Shown piece by piece: positions 35,583 through 52,577 of a stretch of 64,000 nucleotides of DNA; the stretch's first letter is position 1; the number at the start of each line of letters is the position of its first letter. The translations under genes and the position numbers were made by a program. Source of the stretch: Trypanosoma brucei (lineage: Eukaryota); NCBI GenBank assembly GCA_000002445.1, contig CP000066.1:704001-768000 (forward strand), given 5' to 3'. The notes under the pieces are model-generated. The model saw only the letters and a program-made list of their open reading frames with translations, had not been told where the DNA came from and ran no database searches.

Positions 35583-36400
35583 ACCTCAGAACTGAAGAGT
35601 TGTATCGTGAAGAAACACACCATGAAAAGGATTTTTGTTGTTGTTGTTGTTATTTTTTTTTTCAAAAAGGAAAAAAAAGGAAAGGGAGAAGGAGAAGGAG
35701 GGGAAAGGAGGATCATAACAATGGACAAAAGGACCCACAGGTAAAGTTAAAACATATTAGCCTTAACGGAGCATAAAAGAGAATGGGAGAAAGGAAAAGA
35801 GTAAATTACAATGGAGTGCACAAAAGGCATTATCGTATCACTGATGTGCGGAGAGAGGTCCCGCCATGCCCTCCAGTCTATAATGTGCGCGGTCAGCATA
35901 AAAACACAACATATCACGCTCCAAAATAAAGATAGCAGTCGCGAACAAATAAATAGAATTAGGATTCTCGAGATTAGGCGAAACGCGTCAATATACTCAA
36001 CTCAGAGAAAATAAAGCCCCATCCTCCCTCCCCCTCCCTCTCTTCCCTTGCTAACGCGCAGCCAAGTCCAAATAATCACGTACGTATATCATGACGCGGT
36101 GGTAAAGATGAAGACCAGGCTTTTTTTTCGACGCAGCATGCAAAAGGGAAGAAAAAAAAAAAAAGAAACATCGCTCCTTCGGCACAACAACCAAATACAA
36201 AAAAGACAAGCGTGCCTCCGGGTGCGGTGTTCCAACTTCCTCCTTACACACTGCAAGCTGCGCGCACATGCAAGGGCGAGAAATACCGATATACATAAAT
36301 ATGAAAATGGAGCGAACCTACGATGAGAAGCGTAATGATGATGAATATCTCCTTTCTTGTAAAGTACAGGTAGCAGTGGTGTGATCCTCCCTAACATGCA

Positions 36401-38365
36401 CTAAGGAATCTGCGTCTCAGCTTTTTTTTTTACAAGTGGTATGTGTTCTGACTGCGACAATGCGTTTCGGGTTGAGACTTTAGTGATGCGGAGGGCCTCC
36501 CGCTCACGGGCGGACTGCACGAACCCAGTTGGATCCACCCGTAAGTGGGCAATCACCATCGAAATGATGAAAGCAATAAAAAAGAGAATTGCCAACAGCA
36601 ATAAAGTGCCTCGATTCATTCCTACGCCCAATTCATAGTCCTCGCCAGGTGATAACATCGCCGGGTCGGAGGAATTTGAAGATTGCTGCTGGTAGACAAG
36701 GTAAGAACTCATCATTCCTCGATCCTCATGATCAAGAGAATGGCAATGGTACACCACCTCACCGGGATAACTGGCGGCCCTCCAGCGCAGTACCGTCACA
36801 CCATCAAATATGGGAATTGTGTCACGAATGTCACCGGGAAAAATACCATAGTCTGACATGGACACATTTTGATGCATTCCTCCTTCTCGAGGTACAAAAC
36901 TAACGAACTTAAAGTGATTGACATGTGCGTGAAATGGATGAGGCATGGGATCGTTGGGGTCCCCGAAGATGTGGGCCTCCACGACCGCATTGAGAGGCAC
37001 CACAAAGCCGTGATATTTGTCGTAGTCGTGACCCTTTTGTCCCATAAAATGCTCATAATAACATGTGGTAGAATTCACGAGGGAAGAACAATCAGTACCC
37101 TGCCCTATAATATAGTACGATCCCTTACCTCGAAGGGTTAACTGCGAAAAGGAAATGGACCTCTTCACAGCAGCTCCCTTCGTGTTTAGGTAACGGACAC
37201 CGGTAAGGTTTGAGCGCACGGGAAACTCCACGAGCATCGGGTGCCTACTCACTGATGCAGCAACAGCAATGTAAAAAACTGTATCACCTGTTTCCACCAA
37301 GGAAACGGGAAATGTAGTCTTTTCCGTATAATTTCCATCACATTGAACCACCACATCGTAACGAGTGGCAGTGGTAAAGTACAACCAATGGGCAATAACC
37401 TCGCGTGACTTTGCAAGTGGTACGCCATCCGCAGCAACAATGTGGAACCGACACGCCTTCGGAAGACTGATGTTGAGGTGGCAGGAGCCGGCTGCGAATG
37501 CCATGCGAAAAAGTTTAGCCTCTCCGCTGTGGACTGTCACGGTGGGCTTATGTTGTCCATTGACGAAAAAGAGGTCTGAAGTTAACTCCAATTCTTTCCC
37601 CTTCCTGTTCATTATGCGAGGTCGTGAAGACATGTTGTTTCGTATGGCCTTGTCCACAAAATCCATAGTGCGACCGTCACATAACTTGGAGGCACGTAAG
37701 CGATAGAGGTGAATAAACAATGTAACTTGAGGCATGCTGAGCAGTGTGTCATCTCCCTTTACGTCATCCACAACTAAAGCACCGAACAAACCACCCATTA
37801 ACAAGAGGTGTGTGGAGCCATGAGCATGAGTGTGATACCAGTTTAGTCCGGGAAGGTGATCATCCGGAATAGGCAATCTATACCTAATGGACTTTTTGGG
37901 TTTCACTTCCTTGAAAACATCGTCGATATTTGGATCACCATGCACACCGTGGAAGTGAATGTTCGTTGAATTTACTCCATGGTAAGTGTACATGTTTTCT
38001 TCCCCATCTCCATAATCTTCGCTACCCAAGTCGTTAAACAGATTGAGAACGAGTTTCCCTCCAGGTTTGACATGTATAGTCGGCCCTGGAAGTTGTGGAA
38101 CACCATTGTAGACGTAAAGCCGTGTCTTATATGTAAACACGGCGCCTTTTCCAAACCCCTTCAATGGAATGGTCACCTCCACGGGACGGACGTTGAGGTT
38201 CAGCAGCGTGTCTCCTCCTGATGGAAAAATATCCGTTAATGGAACCAACTCTTCACATGCACGAGATATAACCACTAAGGGAAGGAGCAAATGCAAATGC
38301 AAATGCTGGAAGAAGCGGTTCAGAACCGCAGGCGCGGAGTGTTGGCCGGTGATTCGTCCATTCAT
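36401..38365 (-). CDS. multicopper oxidase (Fet3/laccase-like), signal peptide plus C-terminal TM anchor, about 654 aa
   Basis: All four canonical copper-ligand motifs are present: HFHGVHG, WYHTHAHG, HPFHAHVNHF and HCHSLDHEDRGMM. The ORF track start (38638) is a TTG and reads through a (TA)n repeat and the PPT. ATG 38365 gives MNGRITGQHSAPAVLNRFFQHLHLHLLLPLVVISRA, which looks like a signal peptide. A C-terminal TM segment is LLLLAILFFIAFIISMVIAHL. An alternative in-frame ATG lies at 38557. Confidence 0.8.
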   Translation of the reverse strand: MNGRITGQHSAPAVLNRFFQHLHLHLLLPLVVISRACEELVPLTDIFPSGGDTLLNLNVRPVEVTIPLKGFGKGAVFTYKTRLYVYNGVPQLPGPTIHVKPGGKLVLNLFNDLGSEDYGDGEENMYTYHGVNSTNIHFHGVHGDPNIDDVFKEVKPKKSIRYRLPIPDDHLPGLNWYHTHAHGSTHLLLMGGLFGALVVDDVKGDDTLLSMPQVTLFIHLYRLRASKLCDGRTMDFVDKAIRNNMSSRPRIMNRKGKELELTSDLFFVNGQHKPTVTVHSGEAKLFRMAFAAGSCHLNISLPKACRFHIVAADGVPLAKSREVIAHWLYFTTATRYDVVVQCDGNYTEKTTFPVSLVETGDTVFYIAVAASVSRHPMLVEFPVRSNLTGVRYLNTKGAAVKRSISFSQLTLRGKGSYYIIGQGTDCSSLVNSTTCYYEHFMGQKGHDYDKYHGFVVPLNAVVEAHIFGDPNDPMPHPFHAHVNHFKFVSFVPREGGMHQNVSMSDYGIFPGDIRDTIPIFDGVTVLRWRAASYPGEVVYHCHSLDHEDRGMMSSYLVYQQQSSNSSDPAMLSPGEDYELGVGMNRGTLLLLAILFFIAFIISMVIAHLRVDPTGFVQSAREREALRITKVSTRNALSQSEHIPLVKKKAETQIP

Positions 38366-47811: not shown

Positions 47812-48280
47812 TTTATGTTGGTTATCTGCCGCACTCTTTTTTTTTTCAAAAAAAAAAAGTAACAACTATAATATTAAGGAGTATTATTAATATTACTACT
47901 ACTGTGAAATATTTAATGTATTCTGGTAAAACGTCGTCACTCACTTCATGAAAAGAACAAAACAAAAAAAACGGAAAAGGAACAAAATGTGAGCAAATGA
48001 ACGAATGAATGAGACAAGCGTAAAATAAACACGTTGCACAAACAGAGAGAACATGGAATCCAAAAATGTTTTTTTTCTGCTTTTATTTTTCTCTCTCTTT
48101 GCCGCGGAACCAATTTAAAAAAAAAAGTAGAATAGAAAAAACAGGAAAAGAACACGGAAAGAAAAAAAAAGACACAAACCTGAGAAAAAAAAAAAGAAAA
48201 AAAGAGAAAAGAGAAAGGGAAAAATAAATATATAAAAATCACAATGAAGTGGCGCCTGAATAACAACTGATAGCAATCCT

Positions 48281-48309
48281 TAATAATAATAATAATAATA
48301 ATAATAATT
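48281..48309. repeat. (TAA)9 microsatellite
   Basis: taataataataataataataataat. Confidence 0.9.
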
Positions 48310-48517
48310 AATATCATCACTATCATAAGAGTAATAAGAAAGGATGCTGTGAGGACACGTTTTGTACAAGAAGGGAGAAACATAAACATAAACACGTGAA
48401 GGAAAATAATAACAACAATGAAGGAGTACCAACGTCAAAACATGGAGGCAACACACAATTCGTTTCAGATGCTTGCCGTGAAGATAAACAATTTTTTTTT
48501 AAATGGGTATATATTTG

Positions 48518-48548
<31 letters not shown>

Positions 48549-48958
48549 TTCGTACGCACAAATTGTGTTTCAATACGGATAATAAGAAAGAAAAAAATGA
48601 AGGAAAAAACCAATGACACTAATGTTATTTATATAAAGTACTTTCTCATATAATTTTTTATTTATAAATAATGGGGTATAAATATATAAATATATAAATA
48701 TGAGTATGAAAAGGGAGAAAAAAAAAAGAGGAGATGGATATGGATATGGAAGTGAGTGGAACTGTGAAAAGGTGGATGAAGTTGTTATGTTACGGGGCTT
48801 TTGCTTTTTCTCTATTTTTTTTTTTCGTTTTTGGTTTTGCTTTTGCTTTTTGTAGAAATTTGGTTCGAGTTTCTTTTCCTTTGCTTTTTTTTCTCGATGC
48901 TTTCTTTTTTCTTTCTTTTCTTTCTATTCCCTATTCCTTATATACTCTCCTCTCTTTC

Positions 48959-48989
<31 letters not shown>

Positions 48990-50954
48990 AATATATTTTT
49001 TTTTAAAGCACAAACTTCTAATGTCAAGCATACCGCCTTAAACAATCAATAGAAATAAATAAATAATAACGCCACATAATTTAAAAGAAAAAAAAATCAA
49101 AACTGCTCGTCATGGGGATCTCACGCCGGAATCCAAAACAAAACAAAACAAAAATTGGAAAAATAACGAGAAGTAAAAGACATGCGGCATTTATTTCCAC
49201 TTGGAAGCCGGGACTTTTCTTTTCCTTTCTTTACTTCCTTTGGGCCTCTGTTTTGTAATATATATTTATATATTTGTTTATTTATTTATTTATTTATTCC
49301 TCACAGTTCAAAATAATTTTTAAAAAATATTGGGACAAATAGGAAAAGATGATGAACATGAAGATGAAAAACGACGAAGGGGAAAGGAACGCAAAAAAAA
49401 AAAGGGAAAAAGGGAAAAAGAAACAAGGGATCAAGAAAAATTACACAGAACTCAAAAAATTAAAAAACAAAACATCAAATAAAAAGATACCGCCAAACAA
49501 ACAACCGAATGAATAAACAAACAAACAAACGCGCACAACACACACAAAAAAAAATTTTAATTCCCACTCACAACGAAATAAAGGCAACAACACACCTCAA
49601 CATCCAAGTTATTGTCACCACACACATAATTACACACGCACGCATATGCGTGCAAGCATCAAACAAAAAAAAGAACAAAACAGAGCGATTACGCTAGTTA
49701 TGCGACGGAATAACAGAATAAATACAGATATAAACATATAAATATAGAAATATAATAAATACAAAAATGTATAGAAATACGTATATGTGTTACTACCGTC
49801 ATCACATCATCATCATCATTATCATCATCATTTTATTATTGTTACATTTACAATATTTATTACATTGTTATTTTGTTGTTATTTTGTTGCGGTCCGCTTC
49901 GTCCAATCCCGTTTTCATCTTCATTTTCCTCCCTTTTTGCGTTGCAAATCAAATCCAACAGACCACTAATCACTCCATTCCATTCCATTCCACTTCTCTC
50001 ATTTCTATTTTTTAAAAAAAATAAAAATAAAAATAAAAAATAATATTTGCTCCTTATCTTTCAATCCCTCTTTTCATTCATATTTCTTTTTTCTCTTCTT
50101 TTCTTTTCTCTTCTCTTCTCTTCGTTTGTTTGTTTACCTTTTGTTTTTTGTTCTTTTTTTTTCCTTCTTTTGTTTTACAAATAATGAGCAAAACACAAAC
50201 ACAAGAAGAAAGTACATAATTCCTCTTTCTTTCCCCTTATGCACATGAGTGTCTCACATATATATATATATATATACACCACGTGAGTGTTTATAATAGA
50301 CGTAACGAATAGGGCAGAAAATAAAAATAAAAAAAAAAACAACAACGCAATAATAAAGTAATAAAGTAATATAATAATAGAAAAGAAAAAAAGTAGGAAA
50401 AGGAACGAAGGAAAGAAGGAAGGAAAAGGAACGAAGGATAGAAGGAAGGAACTATATAAACAAACATTTAAGTAGAATAAAAATAAACATAAACAATGAC
50501 ATAATGAGCAAAACTAAACTAAAACAAAGCCAAAAACAAAAAAAAGACACCAATTATAATAACATAATTAAAAAAATATATGAAAAAGAAAAAAAGGTAA
50601 AAGAGATAAATTGAGAACACATCAAACTTATTTCCTCCTCCCCCCACCTTTTTTTTTAATTCATTTTTTTTCTTTCTTTAATTTTTTTTTCACTTCAGTT
50701 TATTTTATTTTTGTATTACTGTTATTTCTTTTTTTTTCCTTCTTCTTCTAATTTGTCATATTGTTGTCATTGTTTCTTTTTGTTTTTCTTTTTCTTTTTC
50801 TTTTTTTTTGTTTTGACTTCACTCCATTCATAAGTTTGTTACGGGGAGGAAATGACATGGACAATAAAAATGGAAGAGAAAATGCAAACACTTGTACACG
50901 GTAGACTCAAAAACAAATCCCCGCGCCTCTTCTTTTTTTTTTCATTTGACACCT

Positions 50955-51010
50955 TCATTTCAATTTCAATTTCAATTTTAATTTCAATTTTAATTTTAAT
51001 TTTAATTTTT
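50955..51010. repeat. (TTTCAA/TTTTAA)n hexamer microsatellite; left arm of an inverted pair
   Basis: catttcaatttcaatttcaattttaatttcaattttaattttaattttaatttt. Confidence 0.9.
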
Positions 51011-51289
51011 TTGTGAGTGTTTTGTGTGTGATTTTTTCGATTTCATTTAATTTTTTGTTTGTTTGTTTGATTGTTTATTTTAATCATTTATACAAATATG
51101 TTTTACTCAAATATTTTCCGTAGGAGTTTTTTTGCTATCCTCAATTTGTGTGTGTGTGTGTTTTTTTCTTTTCTTTTTTCTTTTCTTTTTAGGTGTTGTC
51201 CTCTCCTTTTGGTTTCTTTTCGTTGAATGATGTTTAGTTTCGCCACTTTCACACCTGTGATGACTGAAAGAAATAATTAATGTCACAAC

Positions 51290-51378
51290 AATTGAATGAA
51301 ATCAAAAAATTAAAAAAATTGAAATTGAAATGAAATTGAAATGAAATGAAGGAAATTGAAAAATCAAATGAAATGAAA
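51290..51378. repeat. (TTGAAA/TGAAAT)n hexamer microsatellite; right arm, the reverse complement of the 50955-51010 repeat
   Basis: aaaaaattaaaaaaattgaaattgaaatgaaattgaaatgaaatgaaggaaattgaaaaatcaaatgaaatgaaag. The reverse complement of the left arm is aaaattaaaattaaaattgaaattaaaattgaaattgaaattgaaa. Confidence 0.85.
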
Positions 51379-52577
51379 GAACGACAGAGATGTGAAGAGA
51401 CAAATAAAAATTTTTTTTTGAAAAAAAAAGGTGGAAAATAAAAATAAAAAGTAACGACCGCAACTCTTTTCCTTTTCTTTTCATATACACCTTCAACTTT
51501 TGTTTTCTTATATAAAAAAGAAAAGAAAAGAAAATCTTGATTTTGTTTTTGACTTTTTTTTTTTGGTTCTTTTCAACCCTCTAATCTCTTTTTTTTTATT
51601 TTTTTGCTTCACATATATAAATAAATATATATAAATAAATATATATATACGTATAAATATCTTTCTTTATGCTGAGGTGTATATGCGCAAGAGTAAATAA
51701 AATTTTAAAACACGTGTAACTGCACAGTGAAGGGGGGAGGAGAAAAAAAAAATGCAAGTGAGAAATAAATCTCCTTTCGTTAAGAATTTTAAAAAAAAAA
51801 AAAAGTAAACAAGGAAAAATTATGGGCCAGCTGTGGCGCAATCTCTAGAATAAACAAAAAAAAACAAAAAAACAAAAAAAAAGAAACGAAACGAAAAATT
51901 ATTTCACCTTTCATTTATTTTCTGTTTGGTTGATTGGTTTCCTCTTTTAAGTTCCGCGTTCGTGACACTTCTTCTCTTTTCTTTTCCTCTTCCCTGCCCT
52001 CTTATTTTCTTTTTCTTCTTTTTTTTTTCGAATTTTATTGTTAATATCTTTCTTTCATTCGTTCGCTTTCTTATAATTTATTTGATCCATTCACCTCCCC
52101 ATCACTTGTAGTCATTAGTCCCTTTTATGTTTTTTTTTCATTTATTTAGTTATTTATTTACTTATTTATTTCCTCTTCTCCTAATTTTATTTTAGTCATC
52201 ACAAAACGTCATTTTATTTTTTTTTCCTTTCTTTCTTAATTTCTCCTCCCCTCTCCCTCTCCCTCTCCCCCTCCTCTCCACCGAAACCCCCAACCCGTTC
52301 CTTCGTTATTCGTTTCTTTTCTTCCTTTTTTTTTTTTTGCTTTTCCTCGTGTGCATCTCTCCCATCAATTTTTGTTACGTTTTGCTTTTTGCTTTTTGCT
52401 TTTTTTTTTTAAAGAAAAAGAAAACGTCGGGCCAAACACAAACACGCACACAAATGTATAGACTTATTGATTTATATTTATATATATATATATATACAAA
52501 AATAATAAAACAAACAAATATATAAAGCAAGCAAATAAAATAAAACAAAAAAATAATAATAATAATAATGTGACACT

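What the first reader, a model, noticed from the sequence alone, without database searches (positions are those of the whole stretch)
36401..38365. Fet3-like multicopper oxidase with a complete copper site set plus signal peptide and C-terminal TM anchor
All four His-rich copper motifs are intact (HxHG, HxH, HxxHxH, HCHxxxHxxxxM), so the enzyme is probably active. The topology, a signal peptide with a single C-terminal TM, is that of fungal Fet3 ferroxidases that partner an Ftr1 permease. Trypanosomatids are not known to use a Fet3/Ftr1 system (Leishmania uses LFR1/LIT1). The partner and substrate (Fe2+, Cu+, phenolics) of this orphan oxidase are therefore open questions.
Basis: partly seen in the sequence, partly recalled or inferred. 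Interest (0 to 1): 0.5.

Follow-up and report, generated by a model that had tools for sequence, protein, structure and literature searches.

The report
Trypanosome membrane-anchored multicopper oxidase gene
This is the known Trypanosoma brucei gene Tb927.3.2870, an apparently intact copper-dependent oxidase anchored in a membrane; it is of the bacterial CotA/CueO type rather than the yeast Fet3 type, and what it oxidises has not been tested.

Summary
Window 36401..38365 (minus strand) is one 654-aa ORF, T. brucei Tb927.3.2870. It has three cupredoxin domains, all four copper motifs, an N-terminal signal-like segment and one C-terminal membrane helix. All of these are conserved in 15 kinetoplastid orthologues.

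The protein is not a trypanosomatid oddity. Close relatives occur in choanoflagellates, a chytrid, a hemichordate, an amoebozoan, a green alga and a dinoflagellate.

A 2024 preprint already named the T. cruzi orthologue TcFet3, noted the intact copper ligands and reported no Ftr1.

My best guess is an active lumenal or surface metal oxidase, Fe2+ more likely than Cu+, working without Ftr1. A conserved E-x-x-P-L tail motif may direct sorting. The substrate remains open. The gene is already known and of modest interest.

The parts
36401..38365 (-). Complete CDS of Tb927.3.2870, 654 aa plus TAG stop
38258..38365 (-). N-terminal signal-like segment (aa 1-36). It has a long n-region and a hydrophobic core LLLPLVVIS at aa 26-34.
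   Evidence: Hydropathy and orthologue conservation; AF2 helix at aa 13-33. No dedicated predictor was run.
37763..38125 (-). Cupredoxin domain 1 (Pfam Cu-oxidase_3, aa 81-201)
   Evidence: coordinates checked
37946..37957 (-). Copper motif 1, HFHG (H137, H139)
37922..37924 (-). D148, an invariant Asp at the CueO D112 / Fet3 D94 position (second sphere of the trinuclear site)
   Evidence: The role of this position is from own knowledge.
37826..37840 (-). Copper motif 2, WYHTH (H178, H180), followed by the invariant H182
37328..37597 (-). Cupredoxin domain 2 (weak Pfam Cu-oxidase match, aa 257-346). It contains conserved Cys 295, 305 and 342.
36686..37048 (-). Cupredoxin domain 3 (Pfam Cu-oxidase_2, aa 440-560)
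36950..36952 (-). D472, four residues before the T1 ligand H476. This is the same position as Fet3 D409 and CueO D439. It is Asp in 19 of 21 kinetoplastid-type sequences.
36923..36940 (-). Copper motif 3, HPFHAH (H476, H479, H481), followed by the family signature VNHF
36713..36748 (-). Copper motif 4, HCHSLDHEDRGM (H540, C541, H542, H546, axial M551). It includes E547 at the CueO E506 position.
36539..36610 (-). Single C-terminal transmembrane segment (aa 586-609)
   Evidence: Kyte-Doolittle score 3.19, conserved in all orthologues; AF2 helix at aa 585-610
36431..36448 (-). Cytoplasmic tail motif EHIPLV (aa 640-645). The pattern E-x-x-P-L-x is present in all 14 trypanosomatid orthologues and fits an acidic-dileucine-type sorting signal.
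   Evidence: The sorting function is inferred, not shown.

Best explanation
Tb927.3.2870 encodes a catalytically competent three-domain multicopper oxidase built as a type I membrane glycoprotein.

Proposed topology and mechanism. A signal peptide sends the catalytic domains into the lumen of the secretory/endocytic system or onto the cell surface, a single helix anchors them, and a short tail faces the cytosol. This topology is inferred. Substrate electrons enter at a four-coordinate (His2-Cys-Met) T1 copper. They pass through the HCH motif to the T2/T3 cluster, where O2 is reduced to water with the help of D148 and E547. The residues are shown to be present; the mechanism is taken from the superfamily.

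Lineage. The protein belongs to the CotA/CueO/Tth-MCO ('bacterial-type') branch, within a broad and uncharacterised eukaryotic subfamily. It does not belong to the Fet3/laccase branch. This is shown.

Substrate. The most likely substrate is a low-valent metal ion, Fe2+ more probably than Cu+, bound near T1 with the help of the clade-specific carboxylate D472. The enzyme would then work without an Ftr1 permease, for example in iron or copper detoxification, storage or export in an endomembrane compartment. The conserved E-x-x-P-L tail motif may direct it there, and a Cu P-type ATPase would supply its copper. All of this paragraph is inferred and untested.
For: Identity and intactness. All Cu ligands, D148 and E547 are invariant from T. 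brucei to Bodo saltans.

Eukaryote-wide subfamily.

Secretory topology: signal-like N-terminus, membrane helix, six conserved Cys and eight N-x-S/T sequons.

Metal substrate: several of the nearest solved relatives are described as metallo-oxidases (Tth-MCO, McoC, McoA, McoP, CueO; their activities are from own knowledge apart from the McoC entry title). D472 occupies the position of Fet3 D409 and CueO D439, next to the T1 His, in 19 of 21 kinetoplastid-type sequences but not in the sister eukaryotic clades. The eukaryotic membrane-anchored oxidases of known function that I recall are mostly ferroxidases (own knowledge).

Expression: the protein was detected in both life stages, log2(procyclic/bloodstream) = -1.17 from one peptide, with matching mRNA data. 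The T. cruzi orthologue's mRNA rises in infective stages and about 2-fold with added Cu in amastigotes.
Against: No enzyme assay exists for any member of this eukaryotic subfamily.

The Fet3 E185 column is not conserved, and D283 and Y354 have no alignable equivalent.

The protein has no Met-rich lid such as Cu(I) oxidases of the CueO type carry. Met content is 2-4%, and a Cys-bridged conserved segment occupies that place.

D472 is not conserved in the wider eukaryotic family.

The structure model is of moderate confidence (pLDDT 71) and its coordinates could not be inspected.

TrypTag localisation quoted for 'TbFet3' is only 'weak or reticular cytoplasmic'.

The gene ID did not appear in the held supplements of a surface proteome or an acidocalcisome proteome. 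These negatives are weak because the files may be cut or use other identifiers.
Confidence: 0.45

Rival explanations
1. Fet3-type ferroxidase of a reductive high-affinity iron-uptake system. It would sit at the plasma membrane or flagellar pocket and hand Fe3+ to a permease. This is the reading of the first reader and of the T. cruzi preprint.
For: Same overall topology and a complete Cu site set. A D409-equivalent Asp is present. Trypanosomatids have ferric reductases, and the preprint names the orthologue TcFet3.
Against: The protein is not in the Fet3 clade by sequence, fold or tree. The axial residue is Met, not Leu. E185 is not conserved and D283 and Y354 are not alignable. No Ftr1 was reported in T. 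cruzi, and no FTR1 domain was found in the 20 large ORFs scanned in this window. Leishmania iron uptake is explained by a ZIP transporter.
Confidence: 0.07
2. CueO-like cuprous oxidase. It would convert toxic Cu+ to Cu2+ in the lumen or at the surface, as a copper-defence enzyme working with the Cu P-type ATPase.
For: Nearest solved relatives (Tth-MCO, McoC, McoA, McoP, CueO) oxidise Cu+ (activities from own knowledge). The HEDxGMM motif, axial Met and CueO as best NCBIfam model agree. D472 equals CueO D439, a ligand of the substrate copper site (for the position; its role is from own knowledge). TcFet3 mRNA rises about 2-fold with added Cu in amastigotes and 3-4-fold with neocuproine.
Against: There is no Met-rich segment. 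The CueO M441 position is Met in only 5 of the 21 kinetoplastid-type sequences, and the M355 and D360 equivalents are absent. TcFet3 did not respond to Cu or BCS in epimastigotes.
Confidence: 0.2
3. Oxidase of an organic substrate, of the laccase, ascorbate, bilirubin or aminophenol-oxidase type, acting on host or environmental small molecules or in surface or matrix chemistry.
For: The same structural neighbourhood contains CotA, bilirubin oxidases and phenoxazinone synthase. No metal-specific lid or complete carboxylate triad could be demonstrated. Relatives in free-living protists and a hemichordate are GPI- or TM-anchored surface proteins, one annotated 'laccase-like'.
Against: No identifiable phenol-binding residues. 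The clade-specific Asp sits beside the T1 His. No known phenolic or bilirubin metabolism in trypanosomes calls for such an enzyme (own knowledge).
Confidence: 0.25
4. Catalytically dead scaffold, like E. coli SufI/FtsP, which keeps the fold but not the chemistry.
Against: Every copper ligand, D148 and E547 are invariant across kinetoplastids and conserved in the wider family. SufI has lost its copper ligands (own knowledge).
Confidence: 0.03

Closest known systems
Thermus thermophilus Tth-MCO (PDB 2xu9/6wcn) and Campylobacter jejuni McoC (3zx1)
   Different: Both are soluble periplasmic bacterial enzymes with Met-rich elements over T1 (own knowledge). The trypanosome protein has a eukaryotic signal peptide, conserved Cys pairs, a Cys-bridged conserved segment in place of the lid, a membrane anchor and a cytosolic tail. 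Identity is only about 20-26%.
E. coli CueO (PDB 1kv7)
   Same: Same clade and the best NCBIfam model. It shares HCHxxEHEDxGMM, D112/D148, E506/E547, and an Asp four residues before the first T1 His (D439/D472).
   Different: CueO carries a 45-residue Met-rich helix and a labile Cu site with M355, D360 and M441, none of which is conserved here. CueO is exported by a Tat signal and has no anchor.
Saccharomyces cerevisiae Fet3p (PDB 1zpu)
   Same: Type I topology with a signal peptide and a C-terminal membrane helix. All T1/T2/T3 ligands align, as do D94/D148 and D409/D472.
TcFet3 of Trypanosoma cruzi (bioRxiv 10.1101/2024.04.12.589278)
   Same: If, as seems likely, TcFet3 is the T. cruzi multicopper oxidase recovered here as the orthologue (56% identity, P0006); the preprint's gene table is an image, so the gene ID could not be checked. 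The preprint records intact copper ligands, no Ftr1 and possible non-ferroxidase roles, and it mentions TbFet3.
   Different: The preprint treats it as a Fet3 homologue and reports two of three ferroxidase residues. My alignments reproduce only the D409 position, and they place the family outside the Fet3 clade.
Uncharacterised eukaryotic 'HVNHFQ' multicopper oxidases (Diaphanoeca grandis, Neobodo designis, Cymbomonas, Saccoglossus 'laccase-like', Balamuthia, Chytriomyces, Biecheleria)
   Same: These are the closest non-trypanosomatid relatives (290-440 bits with the kinetoplastid profile). They share family-specific motifs, signal peptides, conserved Cys and C-terminal hydrophobic anchors.
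   Different: Most have Ser/Thr/Pro-rich stalks and GPI-like ends rather than a helix plus an E-x-x-P-L tail, and they lack the D472 carboxylate. None has a known function.

Membership tests
Three-domain multicopper (blue copper) oxidase superfamily | Three cupredoxin domains | tested here: met
Three-domain multicopper (blue copper) oxidase superfamily | Four copper motifs supplying 10 His and 1 Cys for T1, T2 and T3 | tested here: met
   H137, H139, H178, H180, H476, H479, H481, H540, C541, H542 and H546 are invariant in 15 orthologues and align with the Fet3 and CueO ligands.
Three-domain multicopper (blue copper) oxidase superfamily | Copper content and oxidase activity with O2 as acceptor | not testable with these tools
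   Needs purified protein. Only the sequence prerequisites (ligands, D148, E547) were checked.
CotA/CueO/Tth-MCO branch (COG2132 'FtsP/CotA-like') | Closest sequence and fold relatives lie in this branch | tested here: met
CotA/CueO/Tth-MCO branch (COG2132 'FtsP/CotA-like') | HCHxxxHE[D]xGMM T1 motif with axial Met and a proton-relay Glu | tested here: met
   HCHSLDHEDRGMM; E547 and M551 are invariant. The same motif is seen in Tth-MCO and CueO.
CueO-type cuprous oxidases | Met-rich lid and labile Cu site (CueO M355, D360, D439, M441) | tested here: not met
   Only the D439 position is conserved (D472). Met content is 2-4% and there is no Met-rich stretch.
Fungal Fet3/Fet5 ferroxidases | Membership of the Fet3/laccase/ascorbate-oxidase branch by sequence and structure | tested here: not met
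Fungal Fet3/Fet5 ferroxidases | Three-coordinate T1 copper with a non-ligating Leu at the axial position | tested here: not met
   M551 aligns with the Fet3 Leu (L494 in precursor numbering); the Fet3 sequence was verified against 1zpu.
Fungal Fet3/Fet5 ferroxidases | Fe(II)-binding carboxylates E185, D283 and D409 (plus Y354) | tested here: inconclusive
   D409 has the equivalent D472, Asp in 19 of 21 sequences. For E185, hhalign pairs it with E258, a column that is Glu in only 8 of 15 orthologues, while MAFFT pairs it with N253. D283 and Y354 fall in gaps. A structural superposition was not possible because model coordinates are not returned.
Fungal Fet3/Fet5 ferroxidases | Type I topology: signal peptide, lumenal or external catalytic domains, one C-terminal membrane helix | tested here: met
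   Hydropathy and conservation. This feature is not specific to the family.
Fungal Fet3/Fet5 ferroxidases | Obligate Ftr1/Fth1 permease partner | not testable with these tools
   No FTR1 Pfam hit in the 20 large window ORFs scanned. The preprint reports none in T. cruzi. The whole T. brucei proteome could not be searched here.
Ceruloplasmin/hephaestin ferroxidases | Six cupredoxin domains with several T1 sites | tested here: not met

The most novel reading that the evidence does not exclude
The gene is the trypanosomatid representative of an ancient, so far unrecognised, eukaryote-wide family of anchored CotA/CueO-type multicopper oxidases. In kinetoplastids this family gained a membrane helix, an adaptor-binding E-x-x-P-L tail and a carboxylate beside T1. 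It would work as an Ftr1-independent ferroxidase (or cuprous oxidase) inside an endolysosomal or acidocalcisome-type compartment, for instance trapping iron as Fe3+ for storage in organisms that lack ferritin. In bloodstream T. brucei, which lack cytochrome oxidase, it would be one of the few copper enzymes and a reason for the secretory Cu-ATPase.
Probability: 0.15. Interest if true: 0.55.

Novelty: already known. Interest (0 to 1): 0.27.

Why it matters
Trypanosomatids have very few predicted copper enzymes, and their iron handling lacks both ferritin and a Fet3/Ftr1 system. The activity of this conserved oxidase would show what copper is for outside the mitochondrion. One SILAC peptide suggests the protein is about 2.3-fold more abundant in bloodstream T. 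brucei, and its T. cruzi orthologue is induced in infective stages. Knowing its activity would also show whether these parasites oxidise iron or copper as part of uptake, storage or defence. The practical result here is a correction. The name 'Fet3' implies a lineage and a partner that the evidence does not support, so experiments should test Fe2+, Cu+ and organic substrates side by side. The family's presence in many other eukaryotes means that any function found would apply beyond parasites.

Tried and rejected

2. A kinetoplastid-specific horizontal transfer from bacteria looked plausible after the first word-indexed search, where bacterial hits came next at 24-27% identity. The exhaustive HMMER search then revealed many closer eukaryotic relatives, so I dropped this idea.

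3. A CueO-style Met-rich lid was looked for and is absent.

4. I could not reproduce the preprint's claim that D283 (its D278) and Y354 equivalents are present.

5. A neighbouring partner gene was looked for and none found. Nearby genes are an inorganic pyrophosphatase, Got1, an ATP-synthase-associated protein, a MORN protein, eIF2-alpha and others. Trypanosome polycistrons are not functional operons in any case.

6. Supplement searches for Tb927.3.2870 found nothing in TrypTag, a bloodstream surface proteome or an acidocalcisome proteome. These are inconclusive because the held files may be truncated.

7. The RIT-seq paper is not held.

8. Searches for Leishmania gene IDs and for literature on a Leishmania multicopper oxidase gave nothing relevant.

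9. The afdb50 fold library was unavailable.

10. A database search with yeast Ftr1 was not run. The word-index pre-filter would be saturated by fungal homologues, so a negative result would mean nothing.
Full report
**What is at the coordinates.**
Window 36401..38365 holds one minus-strand ORF of 654 codons ending in TAG. It is identical to T. brucei brucei TREU927 XP_843880.1 / UniProt Q57ZM5. NCBI calls it 'hypothetical protein, conserved' and UniRef calls it 'Multicopper oxidase'. A SILAC supplement lists it as Tb927.3.2870, Tb927_03_v4:740585-742549(-), 654 aa. This matches the ORF length exactly and places window position 1 at chromosome 3 position 704,185. Neighbouring genes agree with that numbering: pyrophosphatase Tb927.3.2840, a 12.6-kDa ATP-synthase-associated protein Tb927.3.2880 and eIF2-alpha Tb927.3.2900.

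**Checking the observation.**
Pfam finds Cu-oxidase_3 (aa 81-201, E 5.9e-11) and Cu-oxidase_2 (aa 440-560, E 1.8e-18). A sub-threshold Cu-oxidase match lies between them.

In an alignment of 15 orthologues, from Trypanosoma, Leishmania and relatives to free-living Bodo saltans, all ten His, the Cys and the axial Met are invariant. Two further residues are invariant as well. D148 sits at the position of CueO D112 and Fet3 D94. E547 sits at the position of CueO E506. From my own knowledge of the superfamily, these positions assist O2 reduction at the trinuclear cluster.

One strong hydrophobic segment (aa 588-606) is followed by a 48-residue tail. An N-terminal hydrophobic core (aa 26-34) is present in every full-length orthologue. 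Six conserved Cys and eight N-x-S/T sequons fit a lumenal or extracellular catalytic domain. The word 'signal peptide' rests on hydropathy and conservation, not on a dedicated predictor.

**Is it Fet3-like?**
I recovered the Fet3p and CueO sequences from memory and verified them residue for residue against PDB 1zpu and 1kv7. Literature numbering for both refers to the precursor (mature +21 and +28).

- Pairwise, the trypanosome protein matches Fet3 weakly: 37 bits, 25% identity over 267 aa.
- Searching PDB sequences with the single protein gives bacterial enzymes first: Thermus Tth-MCO, Campylobacter McoC, CotA and CueO. Fet3 is not among the 60 best.
- With the kinetoplastid profile, Tth-MCO scores 111.6 bits, McoC 94, a Bacillus oxidase 72 and CotA 65. 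Fet3 scores 40 bits, rank 28.
- An AlphaFold model built on the 15-sequence alignment has pLDDT 71 and pTM 0.73. Foldseek returned only CotA, Tth-MCO, McoC, CueO, bilirubin oxidases and phenoxazinone synthase in its top 50.
- The T1 motif HCHxxxHEDRGMM is that of Tth-MCO and CueO. Fet3 has HCHIEWHLLQGL, with Leu at the axial position.

For the Fet3 iron-site residues, the results are as follows.

- D409 has a positional equivalent, D472, four residues before the first T1 His. CueO D439 occupies the same position. D472 is Asp in 19 of 21 kinetoplastid-type sequences.
- hhalign pairs E185 with E258, but that column is Glu in only 8 of 15 orthologues (Val in T. cruzi). MAFFT pairs E185 with a different residue.
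- D283 and Y354 fall in gaps.

So the resemblance to Fet3 is one of topology and general chemistry, not of family. The topology is also shared by other anchored oxidases such as hephaestin (own knowledge).

**What the family really is.**
The first, word-indexed homology search suggested a kinetoplastid family whose next relatives are bacterial. An exhaustive HMMER search of 1.84 billion representatives changed that picture. Directly after the kinetoplastids come many full-length relatives at 290-440 bits. They have eukaryote-style signal peptides, Ser/Thr/Pro-rich stalks and C-terminal hydrophobic ends. They also share distinctive motifs: NTTN-HxHG-LH-DP, IP..H.PG.HWYH.H.HG, HP.H.HVNHFQ, GDWRDT.P and HCH.L.HED.G.M.

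Named members come from these organisms:

- a choanoflagellate (Diaphanoeca grandis, with a membrane helix and a DDDILPLILL tail)
- the free-living kinetoplastid Neobodo designis
- the green alga Cymbomonas
- the hemichordate Saccoglossus ('laccase-like')
- Balamuthia
- an EukProt entry labelled Nk52, which I take from memory to be an ichthyosporean
- a chytrid (Chytriomyces hyalinus)
- a dinoflagellate (Biecheleria cincta)

In a simple neighbour-joining tree without bootstrap, all these eukaryotic sequences form one group. The anchored kinetoplastid clade sits inside it. Acidobacterial and other bacterial oxidases come next, then CueO, with Fet3 used as the outgroup. The protein is therefore one branch of a broad, uncharacterised eukaryotic family of CotA/CueO-type oxidases.

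**Clues to function.**
The nearest solved relatives include several enzymes described as metallo-oxidases (Tth-MCO, McoC, McoA, McoP, CueO; activities mostly from own knowledge). Those enzymes carry Met-rich elements over T1. The trypanosome protein has 2-4% Met and no Met-rich stretch. In place of the CueO Met-rich insert it has a conserved Cys-bridged segment...GxGxxC(8)CxxExFxG....

The anchored kinetoplastid clade specifically conserves carboxylates around the T1 His: D469, D472 and, in most trypanosomatids, E438. The sister eukaryotic clades do not. This hints at a cationic substrate but does not prove one.

The cytosolic tail is poorly conserved except for E-x-x-P-L-[VILM...], present in all 14 trypanosomatid orthologues a few residues from the C-terminus. 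It fits the acidic-dileucine [DE]xxxL[LI] pattern used for adaptor-dependent sorting to lysosome-related organelles (own knowledge). Its function here is inferred.

Published data are thin.

- A SILAC study found one peptide, log2(procyclic/bloodstream) -1.17, with a matching transcript ratio.
- The T. cruzi preprint reports higher TcFet3 mRNA in infective stages (13-fold in metacyclics). It also reports about a 2-fold rise with Cu in amastigotes, 3-4-fold with neocuproine, and no response to Cu or BCS in epimastigotes. It found no Ftr1 homologue, and quotes a 'weak or reticular cytoplasmic' TrypTag signal for TbFet3.
- The gene ID was not found in the held supplements of TrypTag, a surface proteome or an acidocalcisome proteome. 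These are weak negatives.
- No FTR1 domain was found in the 20 large window ORFs scanned.

**Most likely mechanism.**
Shown: an intact three-domain multicopper oxidase of the bacterial-type branch, conserved throughout kinetoplastids, expressed as protein, with the sequence features of a type I membrane glycoprotein.

Inferred: copper is loaded in the secretory pathway by the Cu P-type ATPase. The catalytic domains face the lumen or the outside. Electrons from the substrate enter at the His2-Cys-Met T1 site and reduce O2 to water at the trinuclear cluster.

My committed guess (0.45) is that the substrate is a metal ion, Fe2+ more likely than Cu+, and that the enzyme acts without an Ftr1-type permease in metal detoxification, storage or export. 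The rivals are a CueO-like cuprous oxidase (0.2), an organic-substrate oxidase (0.25), a true Fet3/Ftr1-type uptake ferroxidase (0.07) and an inactive scaffold (0.03).

**Novelty and verdict.**
The gene is annotated as a multicopper oxidase in UniProt. The finding is therefore real but already known.

This analysis adds four things: the reassignment from the Fet3 clade to the CotA/CueO-type clade, the existence of a wide eukaryotic sister family, the conserved tail motif, and the clade-specific Asp next to T1. Interest is modest (0.27). No specialist would be very surprised, and the open question of substrate and partner needs bench work rather than more sequence analysis.

Noticed in passing
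window 47900-52550: A gap of about 4.7 kb that is AT-rich (24-33% GC) and low in complexity, between a Tc-38/p38-domain gene and an RRM gene. It contains only (TA)n, poly-A/poly-T and short degenerate repeats. There is no long ORF, no tRNA and no Rfam match. It is unusually long and AT-rich for an intergenic stretch inside a polycistron.
   Followed up: partly
window 36422-36431 (minus strand): An A10 homopolymer lies directly after the conserved E-x-x-P-L-V codons. The T. b. gambiense model (648 aa, ending ...PLVKKS) and the T. equiperdum model (750 aa, fused to the next small ORF at 36089..36397) diverge from TREU927 exactly here. Run-length differences or annotation artefacts therefore change only the last few residues.
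   Followed up: partly
window 1-64000: All of the long ORFs that match a protein family or a known gene lie on the minus strand (the only plus-strand ORFs of 180 aa or more overlap them), consistent with a single polycistronic unit of T. brucei chromosome 3, about 704,185-768,184. They include NIF phosphatase, Brix, inorganic pyrophosphatase, Got1, a MORN protein, eIF2-alpha, a Tc-38-domain protein, an RRM protein, LRR proteins, a nucleoside hydrolase and a mitochondrial carrier. Five proteins of 669-1742 aa have no Pfam match.
   Followed up: partly
P0205 (Neobodo designis), compared with the window protein: Kinetoplastids carry two paralogous forms of this oxidase family. One is the helix-anchored form with an axial Met (Bodo, trypanosomatids). 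The other has a Ser/Thr/Ala-rich stalk, a GPI-like end and an axial Leu in Neobodo, and groups with environmental protist sequences. No second paralogue turned up among trypanosomatid sequences in these searches.
   Followed up: partly
P0025, P0028, P0030, P0031 (about 960-1116 aa, unnamed Logan/EukProt sequences): These are kinetoplastid-type homologues with large low-complexity insertions between the copper motifs, roughly 1.5 times the normal length. They keep all the motifs, a C-terminal helix and D at the position four residues before the T1 His. Their source organisms were not identified.
   Followed up: no
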